64,000 nt of DNA, from assembly GCA_030765805.1 (NCBI GenBank), contig JAVCDH010000111.1:5424-69423 (forward strand), read 5' to 3'. The notes under the pieces are model-generated. The model worked only from the letters and a program-made list of their open reading frames with translations. It was not told where the DNA came from and ran no database searches. The DNA is from Candidatus Euphemobacter frigidus. GTDB taxonomy: Bacteria; Auribacterota; Erginobacteria; Erginobacterales; Erginobacteraceae. Made by a program: the position numbers and the translations under genes. This document shows positions 28,501 through 44,756 of this stretch, in pieces. Position 1 is the stretch's first letter, and each line of letters begins with the position of its first letter.

Positions 28501-30852
28501 CCAGATATTGACATTGTAATCCCTTCCCCCGCTCCCCGCGTAGATCCGGGAGGTGTCGGCGAATACCGAGTTCAGCCACCCCCCGGACCCGGAGAGCCTG
28601 GTCTGGAGATTGAAGTCGGACCGGTTCCAGATATAGAGAGACCGGTCATAGTTGGCGGAATATAGGTAGTCGGCGTCCGCGTAGACCGACTCGGCGAAGT
28701 ACTGCCCATCCCCCAGGACATGGAGCAGCTCGAAGGTCCGCCGGTCCCAGACGTAGACCCGGCTGTCGTCGTTCGAGCCGTAGATATAGTCGCCATCGGC
28801 ATAGACCGAGAGCATCTCCTTGCAATCGGGGACGGTAAGACTCGTCACCGGCCGGTAGGACGACCGGTCCCAGATATATATATGCTTATCTTCACTGGCT
28901 CCGTAGATATAGTCACCGTCGGCATAGACCCCGAGCATCCAGCCCTTTCCCCGGGAGAGAACAGCCAGAAGCGTGAACTCAAGCGGAGTCGGTGAGGGGG
29001 CCGGAGTCGGAGTCGTGAAAAACCGGATTCCAAAGGTAGGCGAGGGCGAAGGCAGCCGGGTTAGGAGCACTTCCGGTGTACCGGTCGGAACCGCGGTAGG
29101 AGGGGGCGGCGGAGTATGGAACCCTTTCGGAGAGGGCGTCGTCGAGGGCGGCGGTGTCGGCGTTCGGTAATCCGCCGGCGTGGCGGAAGGCGGCGGGGTC
29201 GGGGTCGGAGTGGGAGACGGCGACGGCGTGGGGGTCGGGGTTCTCTCAGCCAGCCAGAGATATATATTGCCGTCGGCATTGGCCCCGTAGATATAATGGG
29301 TAAAGGAATCTCCGGGCCGGTAGCGGTCGGCAAAGACACCATTCATCGGCAACCCGCTCGCCTTCAGTTTCGTCTGGGGGGAGAAGTCCGTGAGTCTCCA
29401 GGCGTTGATTGCACCGTCGGGACCGGCGCCATACAGGTAGTTCCGGTCGTCGGAACTGAGACTCCCGATCGGACCGGGCGCCCCGCGGAGAGCGGTCTGG
29501 AGATTGAAAGAGCCTTTCACCCAGGCAGCGGCGGCCGGGGCGGACCCTCCGCCGTAGCAGTAAGAACTGTCAACGGCCGCCGCCCACATAATATCCGTGC
29601 TCTCGGAGAAGGCACCGGCCGGAACAAAGGTCTCTCTATCCCAGAGATAGAGAGACCCGTCCACGTTGGCCCCGTAAATATAATCGTCATCCAGGCAGAC
29701 CGAGAGCATCGGCCCCAGCCCCCGGTCAAGGACAGTCTGGAGGCTGAAATCGGAGGCAGCCCAGAGATAGATCCTCCCATCGTTGTTGGCCCCGCAGATG
29801 ATCTCGGAATCTCCGGCTACCGAGTACATGAAGCCCCCGCCCTGGTCGAGAACGGCCAGCAGAGAGAAGCCTCTCCCTCGAATGTCGTAGTCCCAGGCGT
29901 AGACGTTGCTGTCCGCGCTCGCTCCGTATAAACGCCGGTAAGATGACCCGCGGACAGACTGTATTCCATAGATATTCCCGGCGGTATACCCGCCAATAGT
30001 CTCCAGAAAATTGAAACCGGCCGGTCCCCTCTCCCAGATATAGACCCGGCCGTCCCCGGCTCCTCCGTAGAGATACCGGTCGTCCGCCCAGACCGACCAG
30101 ACCGGGCTGGCGACCGGGATGATATACACCAGATCGAAAGGCGCCGGACCGGGGATGGAGGCAGGAGAAGGCAGGGGGGACGGGGTTAAAGACCGGAGTT
30201 GCTTGCGAGAGGCGGTGGGTGTCGCAGTCGGGGTTGGGGTTGGGGTTGACGTCGGAGTGGGAGATGGTGTGGTGGATGGAGTTGGACTGGGCGCCGGGGT
30301 CGGGGTCTTCGGGGTACGGGTCGTGATGGTGGTCGGGGTAGGAGCCGGGGTGGGGGTCATAAAGGGGATACCGAACAACTCCAGGTAGACCGCTCGATAG
30401 GCCTTTTCAAGAAGGGAATAGGAGAGGCTCTTCTTATGGGGATCATACTTCGTCTCCGGATAAACATCATACTCGACCCTGGTCCGGTCGGGGTATATAA
30501 TGATGATCTCCTGCTTCTCGGACGTGTGATCGAAGATACCCCCCGCCGGCCGGATTTGCCGGGCCCCCGGGCCGAAGGCGGCAAAGAGCTCTTCCGGCGG
30601 GATCCAGGCCGCGGAGACCATCTTCGGGGTCGATGTCGGGGTCGGACTTGGAGTTCTATACGCATCCGGTGTCGGAGTCGGGTGGATCCGGAACCAGGTT
30701 CGGATCGGCGACGCGCCGACAACAACCGGGGATTCCGGGGGGAGGGGCATGGCCCCGTCACCCCACAGATCGGACAGAGAGAGGACCAGCCATACCCCTG
30801 AAATTATCGCGCCCGTGATCAGCGTCTTCATCATCTTCATTCTCACTCTCAT
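25582..30852 (-). CDS. giant (1756 aa) secreted multidomain protein: signal peptide, Pro/Thr-rich linkers, two WD40/PQQ-like beta-propeller repeat blocks, lamin-tail domain (LTD), and a C-terminal polysaccharide-lyase-like region (heparinase II/III- or alginate-lyase-like, tentative)
   Basis: Signal peptide MKTLITGAIISGVWLVLSL. There are about 14 repeats of the form D-G-x-IY-x-W-D...L-x-G (YIYGA.ADGNIYLW). The LTD signature is GDVVINEIAWGGT...QWIELYNNG...LDGWKL. Long PTPTPSPSPTP linkers separate the blocks. The C-terminal 600 aa are alpha-rich with an NHGNYAQG motif. The gene starts 32 bp downstream of gspM on the same strand. Confidence 0.75.
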   Translation of the reverse strand: MRVRMKMMKTLITGAIISGVWLVLSLSDLWGDGAMPLPPESPVVVGASPIRTWFRIHPTPTPDAYRTPSPTPTSTPKMVSAAWIPPEELFAAFGPGARQIRPAGGIFDHTSEKQEIIIIYPDRTRVEYDVYPETKYDPHKKSLSYSLLEKAYRAVYLELFGIPFMTPTPAPTPTTITTRTPKTPTPAPSPTPSTTPSPTPTSTPTPTPTATPTASRKQLRSLTPSPLPSPASIPGPAPFDLVYIIPVASPVWSVWADDRYLYGGAGDGRVYIWERGPAGFNFLETIGGYTAGNIYGIQSVRGSSYRRLYGASADSNVYAWDYDIRGRGFSLLAVLDQGGGFMYSVAGDSEIICGANNDGRIYLWAASDFSLQTVLDRGLGPMLSVCLDDDYIYGANVDGSLYLWDRETFVPAGAFSESTDIMWAAAVDSSYCYGGGSAPAAAAWVKGSFNLQTALRGAPGPIGSLSSDDRNYLYGAGPDGAINAWRLTDFSPQTKLKASGLPMNGVFADRYRPGDSFTHYIYGANADGNIYLWLAERTPTPTPSPSPTPTPTPPPSATPADYRTPTPPPSTTPSPKGFHTPPPPPTAVPTGTPEVLLTRLPSPSPTFGIRFFTTPTPAPSPTPLEFTLLAVLSRGKGWMLGVYADGDYIYGASEDKHIYIWDRSSYRPVTSLTVPDCKEMLSVYADGDYIYGSNDDSRVYVWDRRTFELLHVLGDGQYFAESVYADADYLYSANYDRSLYIWNRSDFNLQTRLSGSGGWLNSVFADTSRIYAGSGGRDYNVNIWDRTTFNLKKILAGPTDDLNAVRADNDYIYGASADSNIYLWDYGSFRLEKILAEPLNQVTSVVSGGNYIYGSSLDNGIYIWRKPGLSLYGVIDEAKQSMQWVYLDGEQIFGAARDGNIYVWQAPPAGSRAEVVTTPTPASKDPSDWIPGPTPSGEGSPSGGDEEDAFPVLNPTPPVYEWKPPAEPYDPHKETLNYPLLQETYKKVYLEFFNILLTTPSPPPTPVPTPSAVPGPTGSPGTTGDVVINEIAWGGTFDGTDQQWIELYNNGTSTVSLDGWKLRDDSAAWSPISFSSSYSIAGGGYFVLSTNSPSGAIGNMTYLNKQMNSSGGHLVLVDSSAASVDTVNCAGNWFAGDPGYSMERIDPAIPGSAGNWNTAPTSKVYGSSGSYGTPGARNSQQPLGSAYGLVAGASAYDVDLRLQDYVDWIDFANGHYFKIYEWDLSKVDKKYALYDYLPNTAFIYLVTGYKPTGRYFKEKLLELIRDTKFDWGGEEHCRYIADVAEAYLAMLGEGFFSKEERVEIEEKFYRLAIEKRGFYNHGNYAQGIVCGLNAVVGYIVGGKRGDKMISWANRLLSYDDTWTLPYNSRHYQGLFIREMLRVALYSNRMTIPDLDEWGVAWKSNFIRQVEWIIDTFPHNGYNPAYGRDYRQNYVDHYMAPLAVATTVLDDGNPDHIRLAREAKWLLQEMFGYGTTHRVGDFGRNTYGYEAPQWGPFAILLNPLYLYWYLNEGLQPQRPGLARTGSRAIYRPMAIKKSIADGYDESLKSFKIQLDKIIHRTGWEDNALFLMLDPAYPAAKSGKCGFANNIVSLSYGPEEFMTGLTMTFFNHGKTKANISDILGKYSSAQLVSWVNNEKFSRSVTRLKDGKKTWTREITLYKQGDRRIEVKDTLSRRGSVYWHFQGIPQWRGNGVVLDVNGTSLQVTWAGVERATHRDRTSWSDPNPVHRWCYSGDPDREVKLYRSAPGTITTIFRGL

Positions 30853-30884: not shown

Positions 30885-31421
30885 TTATTTCAAAGGCCGG
30901 GTGGAGACAACGGTAAAATCCACGTCCAAAAGATCTTCGGCATTTCGCCCCAGCTTGATCTTCAGTTGATTGACCTTCATTCCTTCCGGTGACGCCTCTA
31001 TCCCGGCCAGGATATTGACCAACTCCGGTACGGCAACTTTGCCCAGACGAACAGTCACAAATGTCTGGCGGTAGAGACCTTGGACAGTTTTATCCCGGGA
31101 CTCTATCATCTTATCTAATGCGACAGCCGGGGCTTCTTCCTTGATCAACTTTTCAAGAAATCCATACACCGACACGCCTTTCTTCCGGTCCCCCATCCCG
31201 GCTGTCAGAGCGCCGATCTCCTGTTGAAGGCGGCAATACCGCCCCCGAAGGCCGATCATCTTCAATAGGACGTTCTCCCGGGTCGTCACCTCGCTCCGAA
31301 AGGTTGTCCACCGGTTCCAGAGTGAGTTCTCCCAGAGGTAGAAATACCAGAGAAGGACGATGAGCAGCACAGCGAATCCGCCCATGATCAAGGCCCGTTT
31401 TTCTTGTTTCTTCAATTTCAT
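30885..31421 (-). CDS. gspM: type II secretion system protein GspM
   Basis: 178 aa with a single N-terminal TM helix (FAVLLIVLLWYF), then a coiled-coil and an alpha/beta domain. It occupies the last position of a canonical gspC-M operon. Assigned by position and topology. Confidence 0.55.
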   Translation of the reverse strand: MKLKKQEKRALIMGGFAVLLIVLLWYFYLWENSLWNRWTTFRSEVTTRENVLLKMIGLRGRYCRLQQEIGALTAGMGDRKKGVSVYGFLEKLIKEEAPAVALDKMIESRDKTVQGLYRQTFVTVRLGKVAVPELVNILAGIEASPEGMKVNQLKIKLGRNAEDLLDVDFTVVSTRPLK

Positions 31422-31491
31422 AAAATTTTTACTCCGTAAAAATTTTATTGAGTCAAAAAATAAAAATTCCTATCATTCATTCTGCTTTTCG

Positions 31492-33120
31492 CTATTTTAT
31501 GTGGGCAAGAGGAATATTGTACTCAAACTCCACGGTCACAAGCTGCCCCCCCTTTCTCCTGGTCTTCGAACCCTTGGCTTCGTGAATCTTGTCCCCCTCA
31601 AAATACCTGGATTTGGCTAACGCGTTCTTAATCAGGTCTACCGAACGGAAGCTATTGGTTCTCCCCCGGAAGAGGACACGCTTGTTGTTGATATCCATGG
31701 TTACAACCTGGACTTTAAGTGAATCGGGGATGATCCGGCTGATCTCCCGCAGGATATCCAGAGCGGAGACCGAGACCATGTCGTGGTAGAACTTTAACTC
31801 CCTCCCGGCCTGTTCCACCCCTTCCTTCATTGCTTTCAATTCGCTTTCCGTTTCCGGCTCCGGTTGATCGGGGAAGGTCCGGCGCACGATCAGACTGATT
31901 CTCCGGGCCAGGTTCTGGGACGTGATCTCTTCCAGCCGTATCTTCCAGAACAATCCCGCCGCCAGCACGACAATCAACCCCACAACAAGGCCGGCGGTCA
32001 ACAGGAGGCGGCGGCGGGTCTTCTCCCAGTACCCTTCAAAGGCAAACTCGGCTATGCGAAAATCAAGCCGGGCCCGGATCGGCGTAACTTCTCCCAGGGC
32101 CAGTCCCAGCGCCGGCAAGGCTGCGGCGGGATGATCGGGGAACTTCTTCGCTTTGAGCGAACTCCAGGGGTCGAGGTCCAGCACCTTCAGATCGAGCTTC
32201 CGGCCCAGATACTCCTTCAACCCCGCCTGACGGGTGGCGTCCCCGGCCAGGATGAGATTTAGCGGAGCGCGCCCACCCGTGACCGTGATCGCTGAATCCA
32301 CCGTTCTGAGCAACTCCGCCTCCAACCGGGAGAAGGCGTCTCCGCAAACGGAGATGATCCGGTCCCGGAGGGAAGAATCCTCAGCGGCGGCGGCTTTCAT
32401 CGACTCCGCCTCCATGAATTCGCATCCCATCTTCTCCATTATCGCCGCGGTCACCACATCTCCTCCCCACGAAAAACTCCTCAAGGAGACCACTGTGCCC
32501 CCCAGTAAAAATGCCACGCCGGTATGAACGGCCCCAATCTCCAGAAGCATCGTCACCTCGTCGGGGGGGAGAGTGGGCAAGTAGGTATAGGCCCGGCAGC
32601 TTCCCAGAAGATCAATGCTCACTTTAGTCGGATCCAGGCCGACCTCGGAGAGCAAGCCGAGGTGAGCTTCCAGGACCACTTTTTTTACGGCAACCATTAT
32701 TACCCTGGTCTTTCCTTCCGCCAGCTCTTCCGCCGGCCAGAAATCCATCACAACCTGCTCCAGGGGGAAAGGGACATGAATCTCGGCCTCCGCCGCTATC
32801 ACCTGTCTGATCTGAGAAAGTCGGGCAAAGGGCATCTCCAGGGACCGGACGAAGACCCGATGGACGGGGAGGGTACTGCAGATAACCTCTTCTTTCCATC
32901 CGACCTCACTGACCAACCGCCGCAACTGTTCCAGCACCACTTCCGGCGGCGCGGGGCCCGGCCTTTCCCGGGGGATGATGCATTCCCGCAGATCGGAGAG
33001 ACGGATCCTTTTGCCGCTCCTCTTCAGGGCTACCATCCGGATGCCCGTCGTCCCGATCTCGATCGCCCGGCAGCTATAAACCGATGCCGATCCTTTCTGG
33101 AATAGATCTTTTATGTTCAT
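31492..33120 (-). CDS. gspL: type II secretion system protein GspL (PilM-like actin-fold cytoplasmic domain fused to PilN-like TM/periplasmic domain)
   Basis: N-terminal region SCRAIEIGTTGIRMVAL is PilM/GspL-cyto-like. There is a central TM helix (LLLTAGLVVGLIVVLAAGLFW) and a periplasmic C-terminal domain. Operon position between gspK and gspM. Confidence 0.65.
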   Translation of the reverse strand: MNIKDLFQKGSASVYSCRAIEIGTTGIRMVALKRSGKRIRLSDLRECIIPRERPGPAPPEVVLEQLRRLVSEVGWKEEVICSTLPVHRVFVRSLEMPFARLSQIRQVIAAEAEIHVPFPLEQVVMDFWPAEELAEGKTRVIMVAVKKVVLEAHLGLLSEVGLDPTKVSIDLLGSCRAYTYLPTLPPDEVTMLLEIGAVHTGVAFLLGGTVVSLRSFSWGGDVVTAAIMEKMGCEFMEAESMKAAAAEDSSLRDRIISVCGDAFSRLEAELLRTVDSAITVTGGRAPLNLILAGDATRQAGLKEYLGRKLDLKVLDLDPWSSLKAKKFPDHPAAALPALGLALGEVTPIRARLDFRIAEFAFEGYWEKTRRRLLLTAGLVVGLIVVLAAGLFWKIRLEEITSQNLARRISLIVRRTFPDQPEPETESELKAMKEGVEQAGRELKFYHDMVSVSALDILREISRIIPDSLKVQVVTMDINNKRVLFRGRTNSFRSVDLIKNALAKSRYFEGDKIHEAKGSKTRRKGGQLVTVEFEYNIPLAHIK

Positions 33121-33230: not shown

Positions 33231-34610
33231 CTAACGGCCTTCGAACCGCCAATAGCAGACCACTATCCGGTTCTTCCGGCGCTGTACCACGGCTCGCACC
33301 CGGGCGGTTGTCTCCCCTACCCTCCCTTCAGAGAGGATGGTGAAATATTCACTCTGGACTTTGAAATGTTCGAGAAACTTGTCTTGCATCTCCTCGCTTA
33401 AAAACTCGTCGTTGTTGATATCTTCAATCGCCTGAAAGGGGAGCTCCTCCCGGGCATCGATAATATCGCCGGCCAGTGTCATCTGATCGTCGTTATCATC
33501 CTGAAGCATTACTTCCAGCACCTCCCTCGAGGCGGTGTTGATGTTGACCTTGCCGTCTCCGTAGACCGTCAGGTATCCCCGCAGCCCCGGGAACGGTTTC
33601 CTGGCCCAGGGATCGATCAACTGGAGCTCGCTCTCTTCCTTCTCTATCTCGATCTCTTCCCGCCCGGGCGCCCCCATAAGCCAGGTCCGGGTCATATCTT
33701 TTATCAACGCCAGTTCCCCGATCGTCTCCATGGGGCCGCTCCGTGAGATGCCATCCGGATCGGAGCCCTCGTCTTCCTCGAACCAGTCAACGATCGCATC
33801 CATGGTCCCTTTCGGCGTATCGAAGAGCGCTTTGGCGAAGGGGTCGATCCCATCCGCCGCATCAGCCAGGGCCCGGATCTTCTCCAGCAGAAGCTTAAGG
33901 GCCAGATACTCCGTCGATTCATCGTCTATCTCTATCTCCTCATCCTCCTTATCGTCCTCTTCCCTGTCATTCTCCTTCTTCTCCTCTTTCTCTGCTCGCT
34001 CTTTTTGCTTTCTCTTCTCCTTATCCCCCTCCTTCTTTTTTTCGGACTCGTCCTCTTCTTCCGCTGACTCGCCGCCGGCAAGCCCCTCCCGGGCCGCCGC
34101 GATCTCCTTGACGGCATCCTCCAGGAGGAGATTCAGGTTGAACTTTCGTTCCTCGTCGATGATCATAAAGTAGTAGGTTCCCGAGCCGAGCGTTGCCGGA
34201 GATTGAGGACGCGCCCAATCTTCATCGAGACTGTCAATCCCATCTTCTTCTTCCTCGGACCGGCTACCTCCCGCCTGGTTTCCCACCACCTCCTCGCCTT
34301 CACCGGAACCCAGGTCGACCAGCTTATCTTCTTCCAGCAACGCGATAGCCTGACTAATACCGGCCCGGGCCAGATAATACGCTTCCAGATTATCCCGAAA
34401 ACCGGCCGCCATCCGCACATCCAGGGTACTGAGATAATTATACTGCATGACCAGCACCCCCAGGAGGACGATCACCAGAACGACCGTCAGCAGAACCACG
34501 CCGGACTGCGCCTCTGCCCGGGCCCCTTTTCTGGCGGGGTTCACGGGCCATAGCCCCGATACATCGGGGCTATGGCCCGCGACGGCAGGATTAACAGGGT
34601 CATTACGCAT
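33231..34610 (-). CDS. gspK: type II secretion system minor pseudopilin GspK with a large E/K-rich low-complexity insertion
   Basis: Prepilin-like N-terminus ...AQSGVVLLTVVLVIVLLGVLV. The C-terminal motifs NINTASREVL and YFTILSEGRVGETTARV are typical of GspK. An insertion of about 110 aa runs EEEDESEKKKEGDKEKRKQKERAEKEEKKENDREEDDKEDEE. An alternative GTG start at 34544 would give a 15-aa leader. Confidence 0.7.
   Translation of the reverse strand: MRNDPVNPAVAGHSPDVSGLWPVNPARKGARAEAQSGVVLLTVVLVIVLLGVLVMQYNYLSTLDVRMAAGFRDNLEAYYLARAGISQAIALLEEDKLVDLGSGEGEEVVGNQAGGSRSEEEEDGIDSLDEDWARPQSPATLGSGTYYFMIIDEERKFNLNLLLEDAVKEIAAAREGLAGGESAEEEDESEKKKEGDKEKRKQKERAEKEEKKENDREEDDKEDEEIEIDDESTEYLALKLLLEKIRALADAADGIDPFAKALFDTPKGTMDAIVDWFEEDEGSDPDGISRSGPMETIGELALIKDMTRTWLMGAPGREEIEIEKEESELQLIDPWARKPFPGLRGYLTVYGDGKVNINTASREVLEVMLQDDNDDQMTLAGDIIDAREELPFQAIEDINNDEFLSEEMQDKFLEHFKVQSEYFTILSEGRVGETTARVRAVVQRRKNRIVVCYWRFEGR
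34545..34578. repeat. perfect 16-bp-stem palindrome (gggccatagccccgat-ac-atcggggctatggccc) at the gspJ-gspK junction
   Basis: Seen in sequence. It lies immediately 5' of the candidate GTG start of gspK, and inside the coding sequence if the ATG at 34610 is used. Confidence 0.9.
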
Positions 34611-34712
34611 CCACCTCGGCCCCTTTCCTGAAACCGCGGATTATGCTGATTAAGCGGATTATATCCCTCTACTCCGGCCTCCGTGTCACGTTCGACGTTC
34701 ATTCGTTATTAG

Positions 34713-35438
34713 TCATTCCTCCATCTCCTCTTCATCCTCTTCCATCCGGGGGATCATCGGCAGGGAGGCGACAGTACTGAATCGGGTCGTCTCCTTCTCG
34801 CCTTCCAGGCCCATGGAGATGGTTATCCTCACCCCATAGGGGAGCGCCGGCGCCTCCGATTCTTCCGCCACATTCTCCTCCTCCACTTCCCACGCTTCTA
34901 CCCACTCGCCTTCTGCGTCAAAGTATTTAAAATCAAGCGCCCGGACGTTCTCCGCCAGAATGATCTCTTCTCCTTCCTGGAACAATTCCTCCGCCTCCAG
35001 GATAAAATAGGGCGCTGTCTTCATGAAGAGCAACCCATCCTGGCGCCCGTGGCCAAGGTAATAACTGACCTCGAACGAGTCATATCCGATCTCATCTTCT
35101 TCCCCCCGAAGACAGGTCGTCGTCACCATGTTCAGGGTATCGTTCTCGAATCCGCCGTACCATTCATCCTTTCCCAGAAACTTCGTCCCTTGTTCGGCAA
35201 AGAGGGGCTGGTAGGCTCCGCTGATCTCCTTTGCCATGGTGTCCAGGACAATCCGGGCGGTCTGATAGATATCGGAGACCCGGCTATAGTTTCGAGTTGT
35301 CTTCATTACCGTATAATAGGCCCCGTAGACTGAAGCCAGAACCACCGCTCCCAGAGTGATGGCGATCAGGATCTCGATGATGGTGAACCCCCCGTTCCGC
35401 TCCTGAGCTAAAACCCGGCCTGCTCTTCTCCCGATCAC
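34713..35438 (-). CDS. gspJ: type II secretion system minor pseudopilin GspJ with acidic C-terminal tail
   Basis: Prepilin motif GGFTIIEILIAITLGAVVLAS. 241 aa. Acidic tail PRMEEDEEEMEE. Operon position. Confidence 0.7.
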   Translation of the reverse strand: MIGRRAGRVLAQERNGGFTIIEILIAITLGAVVLASVYGAYYTVMKTTRNYSRVSDIYQTARIVLDTMAKEISGAYQPLFAEQGTKFLGKDEWYGGFENDTLNMVTTTCLRGEEDEIGYDSFEVSYYLGHGRQDGLLFMKTAPYFILEAEELFQEGEEIILAENVRALDFKYFDAEGEWVEAWEVEEENVAEESEAPALPYGVRITISMGLEGEKETTRFSTVASLPMIPRMEEDEEEMEE

Positions 35439-35920
35439 AGGTCTTCTTCCTCTTCTTCCTCTTCTTCAAAATAGAGGTTCACAATGTATGAGACGATATC
35501 AACACCCGGGCGCCCTTTCTCGCCCGCGGGAGCAGCGAACCGCGCCGAGACCTCGACTTCCGCCTGAAGCAGGGCGCCGGAGTCGGCCTCCGTTATCTCC
35601 TCCTTCACCTTGAGAAAGGGATGCTCCTCATCTTCTTGCGCATTCGCCATACCCGTCTCATAAGAGGCGTCATCACCCGAGAGCGCCATGAAGCCGAGAG
35701 ATTCCAGTGTGCCGATCCGGCTCTGGGCCAGAAGCCCGGCCTGAGTCAACTCCTTGGCCCGTCGCAGATTTCGGACGGTGGTGGCATGCGTCACCAGGAG
35801 CGGGACCATCCCCACGGCCAACAAGGCCACGGAGATCATCACCTCCAGGAGGGTAAAACCTCCGCTCTTCTCCTTCGGAAAGAGCTTCCTGCTTGCGTGG
35901 ATAATAGATAAGAGAGCCAT
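35435..35920 (-). CDS. gspI: type II secretion system minor pseudopilin GspI with poly-Glu C-terminal tail
   Basis: Prepilin motif GGFTLLEVMISVALLAVG. 161 aa, ending YFEEEEEEEEDL. The 4-bp overlap with gspJ suggests translational coupling. Confidence 0.7.
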   Translation of the reverse strand: MALLSIIHASRKLFPKEKSGGFTLLEVMISVALLAVGMVPLLVTHATTVRNLRRAKELTQAGLLAQSRIGTLESLGFMALSGDDASYETGMANAQEDEEHPFLKVKEEITEADSGALLQAEVEVSARFAAPAGEKGRPGVDIVSYIVNLYFEEEEEEEEDL

Positions 35921-36010: not shown

Positions 36011-36529
36011 CTACTCCATGGCTATGACCTCCGATCGCCCGGTATACGGCTTGACCTTGATCTTGACTTTATCCCCCTGGTCTGTCTCCAGGAAGATCTC
36101 GGCACCGTTCGAGTTTCCCCGGGGATAGAACCGGACAACCGGTTCGAACCACTCGACAACGCGGCGGCCCAGTTTCAGGCGCCGGACGCTGATTCCATCT
36201 GGAATCTTCCGCTTCTTCGGTTCCTCGCTTTCTTCTCCGCGACCGTAGTAATCGCTCTCTTCGTCAAGGCTCGTGATCCAGTATTCATTCTCTTCCCGGT
36301 TAATATGAAAGGTATATATCCGACCGTCAATCACCGCCCGGGAACGGGCGTAATCAAGCGAACCGGCAAGTTCCCGGCAGAAGCCCAAAAGCTTTCGGCC
36401 CGAGAAGAGCCCGGCGAGCTTCGGGAAGGTCACCATGAATACCACCCCGATCAAAATCAGGACCACTGAAAGCTCGATCAGCGTAAAACCGCTATGCCGG
36501 GTTGACGGCCGTATAATATTCATTGACAT
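36011..36529 (-). CDS. gspH: type II secretion system pseudopilin GspH
   Basis: Prepilin motif SGFTLIELSVVLILIGVV. 172 aa. Operon position. Confidence 0.7.
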   Translation of the reverse strand: MSMNIIRPSTRHSGFTLIELSVVLILIGVVFMVTFPKLAGLFSGRKLLGFCRELAGSLDYARSRAVIDGRIYTFHINREENEYWITSLDEESDYYGRGEESEEPKKRKIPDGISVRRLKLGRRVVEWFEPVVRFYPRGNSNGAEIFLETDQGDKVKIKVKPYTGRSEVIAME

Positions 36530-36556
36530 TAGTCACCAGTCACCGGTCACCAGTCC

Positions 36557-36967
36557 CTATTCCCCACTTCCCCCTTCTATATCCCAGTTCATGATGTCGG
36601 CGTTATCCCCCGTCCCCCCCGCCACCCCATCTTTCCCGTAGGATGCGATATCCACTTCCTGGCTATGCTGGCTGACCGATGAATAGAAGTAGGGATTGCC
36701 CCAGGGATCTTTGGGGACCTTCGGCAAGTACTTGGGGACCAGGGGCGACAGGGAATCGGGGTATGAGTAATGGTCGGCGAAATACATCCCCAGCGCCAGC
36801 TCGATATTCTTGATCCCGGCCTGGGCGGCGCCCCGCTGCCCTTTCCCGATTGCCTGAAAAAGCTTGGGGGCGATAACGGCAGCCAGAAAGCCGATAATCG
36901 CGATCACCACCAATAACTCCACCAGTGTAAAGCCCCGGGACATTTTGAGTCTGGTTCTTGAACTCAT
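36557..36967 (-). CDS. gspG: type II secretion system major pseudopilin GspG
   Basis: RGFTLVELLVVIAIIGFLAA followed by the GspG-specific DPWGNPYFY motif. 136 aa. Confidence 0.9.
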   Translation of the reverse strand: MSSRTRLKMSRGFTLVELLVVIAIIGFLAAVIAPKLFQAIGKGQRGAAQAGIKNIELALGMYFADHYSYPDSLSPLVPKYLPKVPKDPWGNPYFYSSVSQHSQEVDIASYGKDGVAGGTGDNADIMNWDIEGGSGE

Positions 36968-37086: not shown

Positions 37087-38307
37087 CTATGCTACCACCT
37101 GGCTCATCTGAAAGATGGGCAGGAGAATTGAGAGAACGATATATCCGATCACTATCCCCATGGTCACTATCATGATCGGCTCCAGCAGCGAGGTCATCGC
37201 GCTGACCGACGTCTCGACCTCATCCTCATAAGACTGGGCGATCTTCTCCAGCATCGCCTCCAGGGCTCCGCTGGTCTCTCCCACCGAGATCATATGCACC
37301 ACGATCGGGGGAAAGACCCGGCTCTTTCGGAAGGGACCGGCGACGGATTGACCGGCCCGTATCGCTTCAATGGCTTTTCCGATCGCTTGAGCGATCGAGG
37401 TGTTATTTACTATATTCCTGACAATGCCCAGCGACTCGATCAGGGGGGCTCCGCTTGAGAGCAGGGTGGCCAAGGTCCGGCTGAACCTGACCACCGCGAT
37501 CTTCCTGATCAGGGGACCAAAGAGGGGGAGACGAAGTTTGAGTCGGTCGAGAAAGAACCTTCCCCGGGGCCCTTTCTTCCAGAAAGCGAAAAGAAAATAC
37601 AGCCCTCCGGCGATGAGGATGATCACCCACCAGTACCCCCGGATAAAATCGCTGATATTAAGGAGGATGACGGTGGGAAGAGGCAGGGCCTGCTGGGTCT
37701 CGGCAAAGATGCTGGTAATGGTGGGGACTACATTTACTAAAAGAAAGATGATCACCGCAACGCTGATAAAGGCCACCAGGATCGGATATACCATCACACT
37801 CCTGATATGATTACGCATCTTTACGTTCTTCTCGGTGAGGTCGGCCAGCCGCTCCAGAACCACGTCCAGAGCGCCGGCCGCTTCCCCGGCCTGAATCATG
37901 TTGGTATAAAGAGGAGAGAAGACCCGGGGGAATCGCCGGAGTGATTCGGCGAAGTTTTTCCCGGCATTGACATCGTCGCGAACTTTGATGATCACCCGCT
38001 TCAGGGGACTCTTCTCCAGCTGATCGATCAGAGCGTTCAGTGACTGGACCAACTGGAGGCCGGAACTGAGAAGCGTAGCCATCTGGCGGGTAAAGACCGC
38101 CACATCCCCGGCCTTGACCCGGTGGAGAAGCCGCGAGAGAGCCAGGTCGCTTCTCAGATCAACCTTCTCTCCCGACTCCCGGACCTCGGTCGGAAAGATC
38201 CCCTGCCGGCGCAATTTGGCCCGGGCATCGGCGGAGCTGTCGGCATCGATGATGCCGGTTACCTGCTCGCCCCCGCTGTTCAATGCTTTGTAGTCGAAGA
38301 CTGGCAT
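37087..38307 (-). CDS. gspF: type II secretion system inner-membrane platform protein GspF
   Basis: 406 aa with two GspF-domain repeats and three TM segments. The N-terminus MPVFDYKALNSGGEQVTGII is a classic GspF/PilC start. Confidence 0.9.
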   Translation of the reverse strand: MPVFDYKALNSGGEQVTGIIDADSSADARAKLRRQGIFPTEVRESGEKVDLRSDLALSRLLHRVKAGDVAVFTRQMATLLSSGLQLVQSLNALIDQLEKSPLKRVIIKVRDDVNAGKNFAESLRRFPRVFSPLYTNMIQAGEAAGALDVVLERLADLTEKNVKMRNHIRSVMVYPILVAFISVAVIIFLLVNVVPTITSIFAETQQALPLPTVILLNISDFIRGYWWVIILIAGGLYFLFAFWKKGPRGRFFLDRLKLRLPLFGPLIRKIAVVRFSRTLATLLSSGAPLIESLGIVRNIVNNTSIAQAIGKAIEAIRAGQSVAGPFRKSRVFPPIVVHMISVGETSGALEAMLEKIAQSYEDEVETSVSAMTSLLEPIMIVTMGIVIGYIVLSILLPIFQMSQVVA

Positions 38308-38314
38308 GATAGAT

Positions 38315-38394
38315 AAGTGAGCTAAAGTGAACTAAAGTGACTAAAGTGAGCTAAAGTGAACTAAAGTGACTAAAGTGAACTAAAGTTTAAAGTT
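38315..38394. repeat. tandem 9-mer array ([ACG]CTAAAGTGA, about 8 copies) filling the gspF-gspE spacer
   Basis: aagtgagctaaagtgaactaaagtgactaaagtgagctaaagtgaactaaagtgactaaagtgaactaaagtt is read directly from the sequence. It has no spacers, so it is not CRISPR. Confidence 0.9.
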
Positions 38395-38423
38395 AGACTT
38401 ACGCTTTGTTTTAACATTTTGTC

Positions 38424-40142
38424 TCAAGCTTCTATGATATCCTCCTGGGTTACCCGGATAACCTCTTCGATAGTCGTGATCCCTTCAACGACCTTCCGGG
38501 CCCCGTCCATCCGGAGAGTCAACATCCCCTTCTTCAGGGCCACTTTCTTGATCTCTCCGGTATTGGTCCGCTCCAGGATCATCCGGCGGATATCCTCGTC
38601 CACCAGGAGGATCTCGAAGATACCGCTCCTCCCCATATAACCGGATTGAAAGCACTTATCGCATCCCTTCCCCCGGTAGAGTTTCCCCTCCGAGATATCA
38701 TCCGGGGAGAGCCCGATCTCGCGGAGGGACTCTTCACCGGGATGATAGCTTTCCCGGCAGTGCGGACAGATCATCCGAACCAACCGTTGAGCCATGATCC
38801 CTACCACCGAGGATGAGACCAGGTACGGCTCCACCCCCATATCGATGAGCCGGGTTATCGCCCCCGCCGCGTCGTTGGTATGGAGGGTGGAGAAGACCAG
38901 ATGCCCGGTGAGACTGGCCTGGATCGCGATCTCGGCGGTCTCATTATCCCGCATCTCCCCGATCAGGACCACGTCGGGGTCTTGCCGGAGGATCGAGCGG
39001 AGTCCGTTGGCGAAGGTGAGACCGATCTTGGGTTTTACCTGAATCTGGCCGATCCCGGGGATCTGATACTCAATCGGATCCTCGACCGTGATGATATTCT
39101 GCTCCATCGAGTTCACGTTGCTCAAGGCCGCGTATAGGGTGGTAGTCTTGCCGGAACCGGTCGGGCCGGTTACCAGGATGATGCCGTGGGAGAGCTTGAT
39201 CAGCCGGGAGAAGAGCGCCAAGCGATCATCACTCATTCCCAGATCGTGAAGGCTGTAAAGCTGGGCGGACCGGTCCAGCAACCGGAGTACGATTCTTTCC
39301 CCGAATGAGATCGGGATTGTGGAAACACGCAGGTCAATCTCCCGGTCGGTGATCTTAATTTTAATCCGGCCGTCCTGGGGAAGGCGTTTCTCGGCGATAT
39401 TCAGGTTAGCCATGATCTTAACCCGGGAAGTGATCGCGGACTGGTACTGCTTGGACGGCTTGATCGATTCATAGAGGATGCCGTCTATCCGGTAACGCAC
39501 CCGGAGCTCTTTTTCATAGGGCTCGATGTGGATATCGCTGGCCCGGACTTTGACGGCTTCAAAGAGAATCAGATTGACCAGCTTGATCACCGGAGCCTTG
39601 GTGGCGATGTCCAGGAGATCTTCCGCCTCATCAGTCAGGGTCACCAGTTCAGTGATTTCCTCTTCCTCCATCCCCTCCAGCATCGCCTCGGCGGCGCCGT
39701 CGGCATGGCCGTATGAATGGTTGGCGACCCTGATGATCTCATCAGGGGCACAGACGACCGGGTGCACTTCCTTCTCCAGCAAAAGACGGAGGTCGTCCAG
39801 GGGCTGAAGCTCGAGAGGGTTGGCCATGGCCACGGCGACCGTTCCCTTCTCTTCCTTAAGCGGGATCAGCTGATGGGCCAACAAAAAATTCAGCGGGATG
39901 CGGGAGACGATCTCCTTATCCACCATCTCCACCGAGAGCGAATCGAGATAGGGGAGATTCAGATGACGGCTCAGCGCCCGACGATACTGTTCCTGATTGA
40001 TAACCCCCATCCCGAACAAGATATCACCCAGTTGTTTCCCCTGGTCAGGGCCTTCCTGGCGCGACCGGGCCGTATCGAGGACCGCCCGATCCACCACTTT
40101 ATCGGCCAGTAAAATCTCTTCGATTGATTGATTCGCAATCAT
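38424..40142 (-). CDS. gspE: type II secretion system ATPase GspE
   Basis: Walker A motif LVTGPTGSGKTTTLYAAL. N-terminal MshEN/T2SE_N domain. C-terminal zinc-binding tetracysteine CPHC...CDKC. 572 aa. Confidence 0.95.
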   Translation of the reverse strand: MIANQSIEEILLADKVVDRAVLDTARSRQEGPDQGKQLGDILFGMGVINQEQYRRALSRHLNLPYLDSLSVEMVDKEIVSRIPLNFLLAHQLIPLKEEKGTVAVAMANPLELQPLDDLRLLLEKEVHPVVCAPDEIIRVANHSYGHADGAAEAMLEGMEEEEITELVTLTDEAEDLLDIATKAPVIKLVNLILFEAVKVRASDIHIEPYEKELRVRYRIDGILYESIKPSKQYQSAITSRVKIMANLNIAEKRLPQDGRIKIKITDREIDLRVSTIPISFGERIVLRLLDRSAQLYSLHDLGMSDDRLALFSRLIKLSHGIILVTGPTGSGKTTTLYAALSNVNSMEQNIITVEDPIEYQIPGIGQIQVKPKIGLTFANGLRSILRQDPDVVLIGEMRDNETAEIAIQASLTGHLVFSTLHTNDAAGAITRLIDMGVEPYLVSSSVVGIMAQRLVRMICPHCRESYHPGEESLREIGLSPDDISEGKLYRGKGCDKCFQSGYMGRSGIFEILLVDEDIRRMILERTNTGEIKKVALKKGMLTLRMDGARKVVEGITTIEEVIRVTQEDIIEA

Positions 40143-40152
40143 TTTTTGTAAC

Positions 40153-42417: not shown

Positions 42418-42428
42418 TATAAATAAGA

Positions 42429-43403
42429 TTATTCCAGCTCCAAAAGCTCAACCTGAACCATGTACTCCAGTTGGAGGAGTTCTGATTGCCTTTTTATCTC
42501 CACGATCACGGTCTTTTCGGTCTGAACCTCCTGGAGCAGTTCCAGGGCTCTCTTCTTCCCGGTGATCATCTTCTCGTTTACCGTACGAATAATGTCTCCC
42601 TTCTTGATCCCCAGATAGGTCGAGAGATGGCGCGGAGGCAGAATCAGTATCTCGTACCCCTCGGAGTCTCCCCGCCGGGGTTTTCCCGGCGGATAATACG
42701 GGCGGCAACCGACACCGCTCAACGCCTTCATAATCTGGGCGACCACTTCATCGACCTTGACCTTGATCTGATCTACTTTGATATATTTCCAGAGACCTTT
42801 CTTGCTGACGAGCCATTTATTATTAGCGATCAACTGCCAGAGACCTTTCTTGCTGATCAGCCATTTGTTCTTACCGACCGGGCGAAGAATGCGAGAGAGG
42901 GGAATGGATCCCTTATTAACCTTGATGCTATCTTTAAACGCGGTTAAGGTAAAGACATTCCCCTTGAAATCCATGACTACCTGGTTTCGCTCGATCTCCA
43001 GCACTACCGCCTCGGCTACCGAGTCTCCCACCCGGTAAGAGTCCTGTTTTTTATTCACAACCTCCTCAATAAAGGCCAAACTTTTCGACTGATCGGCCCG
43101 GACCGTCGTTCCCAGTAGATTTAATTTGGGGGGAGGAACTTCCTGCGGCCTGGGGGTGGGCGGAGGCGCTTCCTCCGGGGCGGCAAACTTCTCTCTCCAA
43201 AGATCGCGGGAAACGATTACTTCATAATACGATTCCCCGGGCGGAGTAGGGACCGCCTCGGCCTCTATCGATTGGTCGGGGGAAGCCCAGTCATCTTCAA
43301 CCGGTCGGTCCTGGTAATACGTCCAGGCCAGGTAACCGCTTCCGGTCACCAGCAGGACAGCCAGTACCAGGTTGATCAACATTATTTTTCTTCGAGACAA
43401 CAT
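42429..43403 (-). CDS. gspC: type II secretion system protein GspC (TM anchor, HR domain, C-terminal PDZ-like domain) with an internal 11-aa tandem duplication
   Basis: N-terminal TM helix, a Pro-rich linker, an HR-like domain (LNLLGTTVRADQSKSLAFIEE...YRVGDSV) and a C-terminal PDZ (GYEILILPP...GIKKGDIIRTVN). Contains the duplicated peptide NKWLISKKGLW/NKWLVSKKGLW. Confidence 0.6.
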   Translation of the reverse strand: MLSRRKIMLINLVLAVLLVTGSGYLAWTYYQDRPVEDDWASPDQSIEAEAVPTPPGESYYEVIVSRDLWREKFAAPEEAPPPTPRPQEVPPPKLNLLGTTVRADQSKSLAFIEEVVNKKQDSYRVGDSVAEAVVLEIERNQVVMDFKGNVFTLTAFKDSIKVNKGSIPLSRILRPVGKNKWLISKKGLWQLIANNKWLVSKKGLWKYIKVDQIKVKVDEVVAQIMKALSGVGCRPYYPPGKPRRGDSEGYEILILPPRHLSTYLGIKKGDIIRTVNEKMITGKKRALELLQEVQTEKTVIVEIKRQSELLQLEYMVQVELLELE

Positions 43404-44742: not shown

Positions 44743-44756
44743 TATCTCTCCTTTAA

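What the first reader, a model, noticed from the sequence alone, without database searches (positions are those of the whole stretch)
33231..35920. Poly-acidic tails on minor pseudopilins GspI and GspJ and a 110-aa E/K-rich insertion in GspK
GspI ends YFEEEEEEEEDL. GspJ ends PRMEEDEEEMEE. GspK carries EEEDESEKKKEGDKEKRKQKERAEKEEKKENDREEDDKEDEEIEIDDE. The three proteins form the pseudopilus tip complex, so a highly charged tip is not a described T2SS feature. It may bind Ca2+ or interact with the (Pro/Thr-rich, possibly basic) cargo.
Basis: seen in the sequence. Interest (0 to 1): 0.5.

Follow-up and report, generated by a model that had tools for sequence, protein, structure and literature searches.

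The report
Acid-coated tip of a secretion piston
In an uncultured bacterial phylum (Auribacterota), the three proteins that cap the type II secretion "piston" carry conserved glutamate-rich tails and inserts that make the tip very negatively charged; this is a real, undescribed variant whose function is still unknown.

Summary
GspI ends in EEEEEEEEDL, GspJ ends in EEDEEEMEE, and GspK carries the quoted E/K-rich tract. The window is Candidatus Euphemobacter frigidus (Auribacterota), and the genes sit in a complete gspC-D-E-F-G-H-I-J-K-L-M operon.

These features are neither chance nor an assembly artefact.
- All 40 GspJ homologues and 37 of 37 clade GspI homologues carry acidic tails after conserved anchors.
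- Tail length is tightly fixed: the GspI tail is exactly 10 residues in 27 of 37 sequences.
- All 10 GTDB clade loci have an acidic GspJ tail; about 55 outgroup T2SS loci have none.
- GspK has three clade-specific, net-acidic insertions (24, 68 and 28 aa), not one 110-aa insert.
- Tip net charge is −14/−27/−50 (I/J/K), against outgroup medians of −1/−4/−10.
- Acidic tails on GspI and GspJ together recur in at least two unrelated lineages.

The conserved giant protein downstream is acidic, as is the secretin, and no basic periplasmic partner was found. Ca2+ binding remains untested.

My best reading is a selected, mostly disordered polyanionic crown that acts electrostatically. I rate it a new variant of a known kind, of moderate interest.

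The parts
35435..35920 (-). gspI: minor pseudopilin, 161 aa, prepilin site KSG|GFTLLEV, net charge -14
   Evidence: ORF. N_methyl domain scores 29 bits, above the 21.2 cutoff. XpsI and TIGR01707 hits are below their cutoffs. The gene lies between gspH and gspJ. The 100%-identical NCBI protein is P0158.
35438..35467 (-). GspI acidic C-terminal tail, aa 152-161 (EEEEEEEEDL), encoded by a 9-bp x 2.9 GAAGAAGAG repeat; the gspI stop codon overlaps the gspJ GTG start (GTGA)
   Evidence: An acidic tail is present in 37 of 37 clade homologues, and it is exactly 10 aa in 27 of 37.
34713..35438 (-). gspJ: minor pseudopilin, 241 aa, prepilin site RNG|GFTIIEI, net charge -27
   Evidence: In the AF2 model, the top 19 Foldseek hits are all XcpW/EpsJ/GspJ chains.
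34716..34742 (-). GspJ acidic C-terminal tail, aa 233-241 (EEDEEEMEE), after the conserved LPM(T/I)PR anchor
   Evidence: Present in 40 of 40 homologues. AF2 pLDDT is below 50 for residues 230-241.
34851..34889 (-). GspJ internal acidic loop, aa 184-196 (EVEEENVAEESEA), variable in length across the clade
   Evidence: Alignment A2. pLDDT is below 50 for residues 186-196. P0200 has an acidic loop at the same position.
33231..34610 (-). gspK: minor pseudopilin, 459 aa (NCBI annotates 437 aa from a later GTG start), net charge -50
   Evidence: NF037980 scores 105 bits, below the 130 cutoff. The clade profile hits XcpX 5vtm_X at E=2.7e-22. Foldseek matches 6utu_C and 3ci0_K at E about 1e-10.
34251..34322 (-). 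GspK insertion 1, aa 97-120, acidic and Gly-rich, net -5
   Evidence: Present in all 24 clade sequences and absent from the 6 outgroups in alignment A1. pLDDT is below 50 for residues 99-122.
33912..34115 (-). GspK insertion 2, aa 166-233: a conserved helix (AVKEIAAAREG), then the E/K-rich tract, ending at the conserved EIEIDDES motif; net -14
   Evidence: The insertion lies between XcpX residues 75 and 77. In the clade it is 62-98 aa long and always net negative, from -1 to -43. AF2 predicts a low-confidence helix at 196-218 flanked by segments with pLDDT below 50.
33582..33665 (-). GspK insertion 3, aa 316-343 (GREEIEIEKEESELQLIDPWARKPFPGL), net -4
36011..36967 (-). gspG (36557-36967) and gspH (36011-36529): major pseudopilin and adaptor pseudopilin
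   Evidence: TIGR01710 scores 109.5 bits, above the 88.85 cutoff. The Pfam GspH domain scores 26.2 bits, above the 21 cutoff.
37087..43403 (-). gspC (42429-43403, T2SSC + PDZ), gspD secretin (40153-42417, net -20), gspE (38424-40142), gspF (37087-38307)
30885..33120 (-). gspL, a PilM/PilN-like fusion (31492-33120), and gspM (30885-31421)
   Evidence: The basic shift of clade GspL lies in its cytoplasmic domain only.
25582..30852 (-). Giant 1756-aa protein: signal-peptide-like N-terminus, Pro/Thr-rich linkers, two beta-propeller regions, a lamin-tail domain and an unannotated 620-aa C-terminal domain. pI 5.5, net -25. Conserved immediately after gspM; putative dedicated substrate or tip-associated protein
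   Evidence: An orthologue follows gspM in the 7 GTDB clade loci that reach past gspM (partial at the contig end in L007) and in L084. None was found in 69 outgroup loci.

Best explanation
Shown. These are genuine GspI, GspJ and GspK minor pseudopilins of a complete type II secretion system in Candidatus Euphemobacter frigidus. Throughout the Auribacterota clade they carry lineage-specific acidic additions:
- a glutamate-rich tail of about 10 residues on GspI;
- a glutamate-rich tail of about 9 residues on GspJ;
- an acidic internal loop in GspJ;
- three net-acidic insertions in GspK.
Sequence turns over freely, but position, net negative charge and (for the tails) length are conserved. AlphaFold2 gives these segments low confidence. 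The tip complex therefore carries roughly -90 net charge, against about -15 in ordinary T2SSs.

Inferred. These segments form a selection-maintained, largely disordered polyanionic crown on the pseudopilus tip, and it works electrostatically. Its likely neighbours are also acidic: the secretin, the conserved giant downstream protein, and other candidate exoproteins. The most likely role is therefore a like-charged, non-stick or repulsive piston face. Such a face would push or release very acidic substrates and pass the secretin vestibule without adhering. Bound Ca2+ or Mg2+ ions could tune or bridge these contacts. The central E/K(R) stretch of the GspK insert may form a short charged helix that acts as a spacer.
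For: Identity:
- GspK fold and profile match XcpX/GspK.
- GspJ fold matches XcpW/EpsJ/GspJ.
- Prepilin motifs are present in GspI and GspJ, and the gene order is that of a full gspC-M operon.

Specificity:
- Only GspI, GspJ and GspK stand out among 48 window ORFs, and the proteome is not acidic overall.

Conservation:
- 40 of 40 GspJ homologues and 37 of 37 clade GspI homologues have acidic tails.
- All 10 GTDB clade loci have an acidic GspJ tail, against 0 of 57 outgroup GspJ and 0 of 49 outgroup GspI (Fisher p=2e-10 and 5e-6, not corrected for phylogeny).
- The GspK inserts are present in 24 of 24 clade members and absent from outgroups, and insertion 2 is always net negative.

Selection rather than drift:
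- Tail length is tightly fixed even though the codons are slippage-prone.
- The DNA differs between relatives.

Disorder:
- pLDDT is below 50 for the tail and the insert segments.

Whole-tip acidification:
- Net charge is -14/-27/-50 in the window and -9/-21/-42 as clade medians, against outgroup medians of -1/-4/-10.

Like-charged surroundings:
- The secretin has a clade median of -17, against -4 in outgroups.
- The giant downstream protein is net -25, and its orthologues are -58 to -101.
- FG-GAP-tagged hydrolases in the window have pI 4.3-4.7.

Convergence:
- Acidic tails on GspI and GspJ together occur in L080 and L081, and on GspH, GspI and GspJ in L082. These lineages are about 35% identical or less to the clade in GspJ (P0200 35%, P0310 38% over its best stretch).
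Against: - There is no experimental evidence of any kind; the organism is uncultured.
- The electrostatic mechanism is inferred from charge bookkeeping only.
- Low pLDDT is not proof of disorder.
- The very tight tail length and the semi-conserved hydrophobic pair in the GspI tail (IV, DW, LV, DL at positions -4/-3) look more like a specific docking peptide than a generic brush.
- The last two Glu codons of gspI overlap the likely ribosome-binding site of gspJ.
- The clade-versus-outgroup contrast is essentially one evolutionary event, plus 2-3 convergent cases.
- Where the GspI and GspJ C-termini and the GspK inserts sit in the assembled tip could not be computed here.
Confidence: 0.4

Rival explanations
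1. Specific docking motifs. The length-constrained acidic tails, with a hydrophobic pair near the end, are short linear motifs. They would bind a defined groove in a partner: another tip subunit, the GspC PDZ or HR domain, the secretin N-domains, or the giant downstream protein. The tails would stabilise the tip complex or couple it to cargo.
For: - The GspI tail is exactly 10 aa in 27 of 37 homologues and follows the pattern E-x-E-E-E-[E/F/L]-[I/D/T]-[V/W/L]-E-E.
- The anchors YIVNLYF and LPMTPR are conserved.
- GspC carries a PDZ domain.
- Several tails end in [D/E]-x-hydrophobic-COOH: EDL in the window's GspI, and EEL, EVF, EEF or GEI in GspJ homologues.
- The giant protein co-occurs with the acidic tip in every clade locus that extends far enough.
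Against: - No conserved basic shift was found in the periplasmic domains of GspL (p=0.7), GspM or GspC.
- The C-terminal residue is not consistently hydrophobic. Many tails end in -EE, including the window's GspJ.
- The tails do not covary with the K/R content of the GspK insert (L084).
- The convergent tails in L082 are long, G/P/D/E-rich and unrelated in sequence.
Confidence: 0.2
2. Divalent-cation binding. The clustered carboxylates act as a low-affinity, high-capacity Ca2+/Mg2+ site at the tip. The bound ions would stabilise the pseudopilus, bridge to acidic Ca2+-binding substrates, or replace a remodelled GspK alpha-domain loop.
For: - There are about 20-40 extra carboxylates per tip.
- Established knowledge: GspG and GspK in model T2SSs bind Ca2+ structurally.
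- The crown group of the clade lacks the conserved GAEDxYY...PxY segment of the GspK alpha-domain (columns 365-388).
- Candidate exoproteins carry FG-GAP repeats with DxDGDG loops.
- All potential partners are acidic, so any attraction would need cation bridges.
Against: - There is no recognisable Ca2+-binding motif (EF-hand or DxDxDG) in the tails themselves.
- The tails use Glu rather than Asp.
- Clade members come from lake, groundwater, sediment and soil metagenomes with very different cation levels.
- The hypothesis is entirely untested here.
Confidence: 0.2
3. Neutral low-complexity expansion. GAA/GAG slippage produced tails and inserts at solvent-exposed, tolerant positions, and they persist by inheritance without function.
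For: - The window's GspI tail is a perfect 9-bp x 2.9 repeat.
- Sequences turn over rapidly.
- GspK insertion 2 varies from 62 to 98 aa and contains an internal duplication in P0039.
Against: - The features are present without exception in 40 GspJ and 37 clade GspI homologues down to about 50% identity.
- The tail-length distribution is very narrow despite slippage-prone codons.
- Net charge is always negative.
- The features are restricted to three functionally linked proteins out of 48 ORFs.
- Joint gain on GspI and GspJ recurs in other lineages.
Confidence: 0.1
4. Nucleotide-level by-product. The purine-rich Glu codons serve as ribosome-binding or translational-coupling sequences for the next gene, and the encoded amino acids are incidental.
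For: - gspI ends in GAGGAA or GAGGAG plus a stop codon 0-7 nt before the gspJ start in the window and in L001-L006.
- The window's gspI stop codon overlaps the gspJ GTG start.
Against: - This explains at most the last two or three codons of a 10-codon tail.
- The gspJ tail is followed by a 40-260 nt spacer before gspK in most loci; the spacer is 102 nt in the window.
- The GspK inserts and the GspJ loop are internal.
- The equally well-coupled gspH to gspI junctions have no poly-Glu.
Confidence: 0.05
5. Assembly or sequencing artefact in GAA/GAG repeats.
For: The stretches are repetitive and purine-rich.
Against: - The identical GspI and GspJ proteins were recovered on 12 and 9 contigs from NCBI, JGI, ENA and Logan assemblies.
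- Dozens of diverged orthologues encode the same features with different DNA.
- The reading frames stay intact and end at conserved positions.
Confidence: 0.01

Closest known systems
Canonical T2SS pseudopilus tip complex GspI-GspJ-GspK (ETEC 3CI0; P. aeruginosa XcpV-W-X 5VTM/6UTU; XcpGHIJK filament model 9A1F)
   Same: The three genes sit in the same order within a gspC-M operon. GspI and GspJ have prepilin N-termini with E5, and GspK lacks E5. The GspK pilin fold plus alpha-domain and the GspJ fold are recovered by Foldseek and by profile search.
   Different: This clade adds Glu-rich C-terminal tails to GspI and GspJ, an acidic loop to GspJ, and three acidic inserts (about 120 aa) to GspK. 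It also remodels the GspK alpha-domain. Net tip charge is about -90 against about -15. Scores against the curated family HMMs fall below their cutoffs.
Type IV pilus tip complexes of minor pilins with a large beta-propeller adhesin (FimU-PilVWXE + PilY1; established knowledge)
   Same: A set of four minor (pseudo)pilins primes the filament and sits at its tip. A very large protein containing beta-propellers is encoded with the machinery.
   Different: The giant protein here has no hit to the PilC/PilY1 propeller family. It follows gspM rather than lying among the pilin genes. The system has GspC, a GspG-type major subunit and a GspK, which makes it a T2SS. No link between the tails and the giant protein has been shown.
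Acidic disordered C-terminal tails in other proteins (tubulin E-hooks, SSB C-terminal tail, HMGB1 and Hfq acidic tails; for HMGB1 and Hfq papers, the rest from established knowledge)
   Same: These are short, Glu/Asp-rich, disordered C-terminal extensions. Some have a terminal hydrophobic residue. Composition is conserved more than sequence, and they act electrostatically as docking sites or as autoinhibitory mimics.
   Different: Those examples are cytoplasmic or nuclear proteins that bind nucleic acids or motors. Here the tails sit on periplasmic or extracellular filament subunits, and no basic partner was identified.
ER/K single alpha-helix (SAH) spacers (established knowledge)
   Same: The central part of GspK insertion 2 (KKKEGDKEKRKQKERAEKEEKKE; REREREARERAR... 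in P0017 and P0019) has ER/K-like composition. AF2 predicts a helix at residues 196-218.
   Different: The helix is short and of low confidence. Gly or Pro interrupts the tract in the window and in many homologues. One lineage (P0031) has almost pure poly-Glu in its place.

Membership tests
T2SS minor pseudopilin GspK | Match to GspK family profiles | tested here: inconclusive
   NF037980 scores 105 bits, below the 130 cutoff. PF03934 scores 21.4 bits, below 24.2. However, the clade profile hits XcpX (5vtm_X) at E=2.7e-22 and GspK (3ci0_K) at 3.3e-9.
T2SS minor pseudopilin GspK | Pilin fold with an inserted alpha-domain | tested here: met
   The AF2 model (mean pLDDT 73) gives Foldseek top hits 6utu_C, 9a1f_T, 3ci0_K and 5vtm_X at E 1e-9 to 1e-10, with target TM-scores of 0.66-0.75.
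T2SS minor pseudopilin GspK | Prepilin-type hydrophobic N-terminus without Glu5; gene follows gspJ and precedes gspL | tested here: met
   The sequence reads ...AQSG|VVLLTVVLVIVLLGVL.
T2SS minor pseudopilin GspJ | Prepilin N-methylation motif with Glu5, plus the GspJ fold | tested here: met
   PF07963 scores 27.4 bits, above the 21.2 cutoff. The top 19 Foldseek hits are XcpW/EpsJ/GspJ chains at E 3e-8 to 1e-4.
T2SS minor pseudopilin GspJ | Score above the curated GspJ HMM cutoffs | tested here: not met
   PF11612 scores 23.3 bits, below 28. TIGR01711 scores 28.9 bits, below 64.85. The clade profile finds no PDB chain by sequence. This is a diverged member.
T2SS minor pseudopilin GspI | Prepilin motif with Glu5, small size, position between gspH and gspJ | tested here: met
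   PF07963 scores 29 bits, above the 21.2 cutoff. The site is G|GFTLLEV and the protein is 161 aa.
T2SS minor pseudopilin GspI | Match of the globular domain to GspI/XpsI profiles or structures | tested here: inconclusive
   XpsI scores 35.8 bits (cutoff 150) and TIGR01707 scores 22.8 bits (cutoff 44.35). The PDB profile search matches only the N-terminal helix. No structure model was made for GspI.
Complete type II secretion system (rather than type IV pilus) | GspC, a secretin with an N0 domain, a GspG-type major pseudopilin and GspK | tested here: met
   T2SSC + PDZ, Secretin + Secretin_N + GspD N0. TIGR01710 scores 109.5 bits, above 88.85.
ER/K single alpha-helix domain (for GspK insertion 2) | Long uninterrupted E/K/R helix (about 30 aa or more) without helix breakers | tested here: inconclusive
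   AF2 predicts a helix at 196-218, with 10-residue block means of 46-70 pLDDT across that stretch and flanks below 50. Gly or Pro lies within the tract, and P0031 is nearly pure poly-Glu.
PDZ class III C-terminal ligand (for the tails) | [D/E]-x-hydrophobic-COOH at the extreme C-terminus, conserved across orthologues | tested here: not met
   The window's GspI ends -EDL, which fits. GspJ ends -MEE, and most GspI homologues end -EE. Binding itself is not testable here.
Ca2+-binding acidic region | Measurable divalent-cation binding by the tails or inserts | not testable with these tools
   Only composition is available.
PilY1-like tip adhesin (for the giant downstream protein) | PilC/PilY1-type beta-propeller domain | tested here: not met
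   Pfam reports WD40/PQQ-like propellers and a lamin-tail domain only. NCBIfam gives no hit.

The most novel reading that the evidence does not exclude
The polyanionic crown is a co-evolved substrate-handling surface. It would push or dock, through electrostatics or Ca2+ bridges, the very acidic Ca2+-binding exoproteins of these bacteria. These are the conserved giant beta-propeller protein encoded right after gspM and the FG-GAP-tagged hydrolases. Charge matching between the piston tip, the cargo and the secretin would then be a previously unrecognised design principle of type II secretion, one that has evolved convergently in several uncultured lineages.
Probability: 0.15. Interest if true: 0.7.

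Novelty: new variant of a known kind. Interest (0 to 1): 0.45.

Why it matters
How the T2SS pseudopilus tip engages substrates and the secretin gate is still unresolved. All structural work comes from a few Proteobacteria whose tips are not notably charged. This clade is a natural variant in which all three tip subunits were acidified in parallel. The extra charge amounts to tens of units, with fixed tail lengths. The same solution arose again on GspI and GspJ, and on GspH, GspI and GspJ, in unrelated lineages. That points to charge at the tip as a selectable functional parameter. The hypothesis is easy to test by adding or neutralising tails in model systems. The finding also flags a conserved T2SS-plus-giant-protein cassette as a signature of Auribacterota, a phylum known only from metagenomes.

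Tried and rejected
1. Basic cargo. The giant downstream protein has pI 5.5 and net -25, and its orthologues are net -58 to -101. Rejected.

2. A compensating basic periplasmic partner. Clade GspL is more basic (pI 9.2 against 6.1), but the shift lies in the cytoplasmic domain (p=1e-4), not the periplasmic domain (p=0.7). The periplasmic domains of GspM and GspC are not shifted, and the secretin is more acidic. Rejected as far as bulk charge can tell.

3. Tails zippering onto the Lys/Arg residues of the GspK insert. In L084 the insert is almost pure poly-Glu (GspK net -102), yet the GspI and GspJ tails remain acidic. Not supported.

4. Ribosome-binding-site by-product. This explains only the last 2-3 codons of gspI.

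5. A generally acidic proteome or a halophile adaptation. The window's proteins average E 7.2% and D 5.6%, and no other ORF has an acidic tail. Rejected.

6. Assembly artefact. Rejected on the independent assemblies.

7. A metagenome scan for the P0200/P0208 lineage found nothing. Exact-protein look-ups recovered only short contigs for those two, so their GspK could not be examined.

8. Sequence-profile searches of GspJ and GspI against the PDB reached nothing beyond the N-terminal helix. GspJ was then confirmed by fold.

9. The 620-aa C-terminal domain of the giant protein has no Pfam, NCBIfam or PDB match.

10. The seventeen mentions of 'acidic' in the XcpH-XcpJ interface preprint refer to a cross-linking chemistry, not to a charged tip.

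Full report
WHAT IS THERE

The region lies in a minus-strand operon that encodes a complete type II secretion system:
- an ECF sigma factor and anti-sigma factor (43422-44859);
- GspC with T2SSC and PDZ domains (42429-43403);
- the secretin GspD (40153-42417);
- GspE (38424-40142) and GspF (37087-38307);
- the major pseudopilin GspG (36557-36967) and GspH (36011-36529);
- GspI (35435-35920), GspJ (34713-35438) and GspK (33231-34610);
- a PilM/PilN-like GspL (31492-33120) and GspM (30885-31421);
- a 1756-aa protein (25582-30852).

GspK is 100% identical to a protein annotated as GspK of Candidatus Euphemobacter frigidus, phylum Auribacterota, PVC group. That organism was described from Ace Lake, Antarctica, in PMC9324843. 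The paper does not mention a T2SS or pseudopilins.

The three quoted sequences are exactly present. Among 48 non-overlapping ORFs of the window, only GspI (9 of the last 12 residues acidic) and GspJ (8 of 12) have acidic C-termini; all others have four or fewer. GspK reaches 41 charged residues in 50, against 27 or fewer elsewhere. The local proteome is not acidic (E 7.2%, D 5.6%). The corresponding binomial tail probabilities are 1.4e-6, 2.2e-5 and 1.4e-17.

One correction is needed. The GspK insertion at the quoted site is 68 aa (A166-T233). It begins with a conserved helix, AVKEIAAAREG, and ends at a conserved EIEIDDES motif. It lies between residues 75 and 77 of P. aeruginosa XcpX, that is, between the FNLN strand and the first helix of the alpha-domain. 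Two further clade-specific acidic insertions lie at L97-E120 and G316-L343. GspJ also has an internal acidic loop at aa 184-196.

IDENTITY OF THE PROTEINS

- GspK: an AlphaFold2 model (mean pLDDT 73) matches XcpX/GspK chains at Foldseek E about 1e-10.
- GspJ: a model (mean pLDDT 70) has XcpW/EpsJ/GspJ chains as its top 19 hits.
- GspI: the assignment rests on its prepilin motif, its size, sub-threshold GspI/XpsI profile hits and its position.
All three score below the curated family cutoffs, so they are diverged members.

NOT AN ARTEFACT AND NOT DRIFT

The identical GspI and GspJ proteins occur on 12 and 9 contigs from several assembly sources.

Conservation across database homologues is complete. 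All 40 GspJ homologues (50-100% identity) end in an acidic tail after a conserved LPMTPR-type anchor. All 37 clade GspI homologues end in an acidic tail after YIVNLYF.

In the 10 species-level GTDB loci of the clade, GspJ is acidic-tailed in all ten. GspI is acidic or E/K-tailed in nine; the exception, L008, has a Pro-rich extension. No outgroup tail is comparably acidic: none of 57 GspJ and none of 49 GspI reaches 6 D/E in the last 12 residues (maxima 5 and 4).

Tail length is strikingly constrained. The GspI tail is exactly 10 residues in 27 of 37 sequences (range 7-14). The GspJ segment after LPM is mostly 11-13 residues. This holds although the underlying DNA differs between relatives and is prone to slippage. 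The GspI tail also has a weak motif, E-x-E-E-E-[E/F/L]-[I/D/T]-[V/W/L]-E-E.

The GspK insertions are present in all 24 aligned clade members and absent from outgroups. Insertion 2 varies in length (62-98 aa) and in chemistry: E/K-rich, E/R-rich, or nearly pure poly-Glu in P0031. It is always net negative, from -1 to -43.

AlphaFold gives pLDDT below 50 for the GspJ tail, the GspJ loop and most of the GspK inserts. It predicts a low-confidence helix at residues 196-218 of the E/K tract.

Taken together, the tip proteins are net -14/-27/-50 here. The clade medians are -9/-21/-42 and the outgroup medians are -1/-4/-10.

BREADTH AND CONVERGENCE

In an exhaustive search of 1.84 billion representative proteins, the whole clade collapses into one 50%-identity cluster. 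The next GspJ is only 35% identical.

Of 149 such distant GspJ representatives, about five have acidic C-termini. Their loci gave the following:
- L080 (P0200): the adjacent GspI ends SPEDEDEQ.
- L081 (P0208): the adjacent GspI ends DPGEEEEEEEGGEEVSG.
- L082 (P0310): GspH, GspI and GspJ all carry long acidic extensions, while GspK is ordinary.
- L083 (P0306): only GspJ is extended.
Acidic tails on minor pseudopilins therefore recur, usually on several tip subunits at once. That argues for function.

TESTS OF MECHANISM

1. Basic cargo. The giant downstream gene follows gspM in every clade locus that extends far enough and in L084. It was not found in 69 outgroup loci. The protein is acidic: pI 5.5 and net -25 here, and -58 to -101 in orthologues. 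Attraction to a basic cargo is rejected.

2. A basic partner in the machine. The higher pI of clade GspL is due to its cytoplasmic domain (p=1e-4), not its periplasmic domain (p=0.7). The periplasmic domains of GspM and GspC are unchanged. The secretin is more acidic than in outgroups.

3. Tails pairing with the Lys/Arg residues of the GspK insert. In L084 the insert is poly-Glu (GspK net -102), yet both tails remain acidic. Not supported.

4. Ribosome-binding-site by-product. The terminal GAGGAA or GAGGAG of gspI lies 0-7 nt before the gspJ start, so the last two Glu codons may be doubly constrained. The gspJ tail, however, is followed by a 40-260 nt spacer in most loci, and the GspK inserts are internal.

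5. PDZ ligand. The [D/E]-x-hydrophobic-COOH pattern is present in some tails but not consistently.

INTERPRETATION

Shown:
- These are genuine tip pseudopilins.
- The acidic additions are clade-wide, constrained in position and charge, and (for the tails) constrained in length.
- They are predicted with low confidence.
- They recur convergently.
- The surrounding machine and the likely substrates are acidic.

Inferred:
- The additions form a selected polyanionic crown on the pseudopilus tip that works electrostatically.
- The most likely role is a like-charged, non-stick or repulsive piston face for very acidic substrates and an acidic secretin.
- Divalent cations may tune or bridge these contacts.

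The fixed tail length and the hydrophobic pair keep a specific-docking model alive (about 0.2). Neutral expansion, a ribosome-binding-site by-product and an assembly artefact are unlikely.

COMPARISON WITH KNOWN SYSTEMS

The closest known systems are the ETEC GspI-J-K and P. aeruginosa XcpV-W-X tip complexes (3CI0, 5VTM, 6UTU, 9A1F). Folds and gene order are shared. The tails, the inserts and the roughly -90 net charge are not.

I found no paper describing acidic tails on minor pilins or pseudopilins. That search covers only open-access text.

VERDICT

This is a real, conserved and apparently undescribed variant of a well-known machine. Its mechanism remains unproven. Interest is moderate.

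Noticed in passing
window 38317-38377, 33188-33215, 37068-37079, 60881-60921 (and 36530-36556): Tandem arrays of a 9-10 bp unit (CACTTTAG[T/C][T]CAC, i.e. TTTAGTCAC / TTTAGTTCAC / TTTAGCTCAC) fill several intergenic spacers. They occur in the gspE-gspF, gspK-gspL and gspF-gspG spacers and in one spacer outside the operon. There are 12 matches against 0.02 expected. The gspG-gspH spacer holds GGTGAC[C/T] x3. This may be a dispersed REP-like or regulator-binding element.
   Followed up: partly
window 25582-30852 (-); L001-L003, L007, L008, L011, L015, L084 downstream of gspM: A giant protein of 1510-2235 aa is conserved immediately after gspM throughout the clade and is absent from 69 outgroup T2SS loci. 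It has a signal-peptide-like N-terminus, Pro/Thr-rich linkers, two beta-propeller regions, a lamin-tail domain and an unannotated C-terminal domain of about 620 aa. It is strongly acidic.
   Followed up: partly
window 10974-13424 (+), 16026-19820 (+), 44982-46493 (-): A GH5 cellulase-like protein and a GH38 mannosidase-like protein share a C-terminal FG-GAP repeat module of about 260 aa (55% identity, DxDGDG-type loops) behind a Pro/Thr-rich linker. An M10 metalloprotease next to the T2SS sigma factor also has FG-GAP repeats. All three have pI 4.3-4.7. Together they look like a family of acidic exoproteins with a common module.
   Followed up: partly
L080 87-485, L081 1-156, L082 581-2525, L083 1414-2214: Acidic C-terminal extensions on minor pseudopilins arose independently in other uncultured lineages. 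GspI and GspJ carry them in L080 and L081; GspH, GspI and GspJ in L082; only GspJ in L083. In L082 and L083 GspK has no insertion.
   Followed up: partly
window 33231-34610 (GspK aa ~250-295); alignment A1 columns 331-388: The crown group of the clade lacks the widely conserved GAE(D/E)xYY...PxYxxxN segment of the GspK alpha-domain. It has instead a new conserved ADGIDPFAxxLFDTPxGT segment. The deeper subclade (P0029-P0039) keeps the canonical segment. Precomputed Pfam hits show the same split, PF03934 only versus PF21687.
   Followed up: no
window 31492-33120 (GspL): GspL is a PilM/PilN-like fusion. In the clade its cytoplasmic domain has shifted to net positive (median +7, against -4 in outgroups; p=1e-4). 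Its periplasmic domain has not shifted.
   Followed up: partly
window 43422-44859 (-): An ECF sigma factor and a zf-HC2 anti-sigma factor lie directly upstream of gspC on the same strand. This suggests envelope-signal control of the T2SS operon.
   Followed up: no
window 40153-40530 (GspD C-terminus, aa ~630-754): The secretin has a charged C-terminal extension of about 120 aa beyond the secretin domain (…KGRESEMADRERETQKKEAMKYQDLK…HDESEEDQKGTGRFHK). Clade secretins are more acidic than outgroup secretins, with a median of -17 against -4.
   Followed up: no
window 34611-34712; L002, L006, L011 gspJ-gspK spacers: The gspJ-gspK spacers carry short direct repeats: GCGGATTAA x2.9 on the plus strand in the window, and CGAATGA- or GCGGTAA-type repeats in relatives. 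Their meaning is unknown.
   Followed up: no
window 33730-34173 (+): A 147-aa Ser/Phe-rich ORF on the opposite strand is the antisense image of the GspK Glu/Lys tract. It is not a gene.
   Followed up: no
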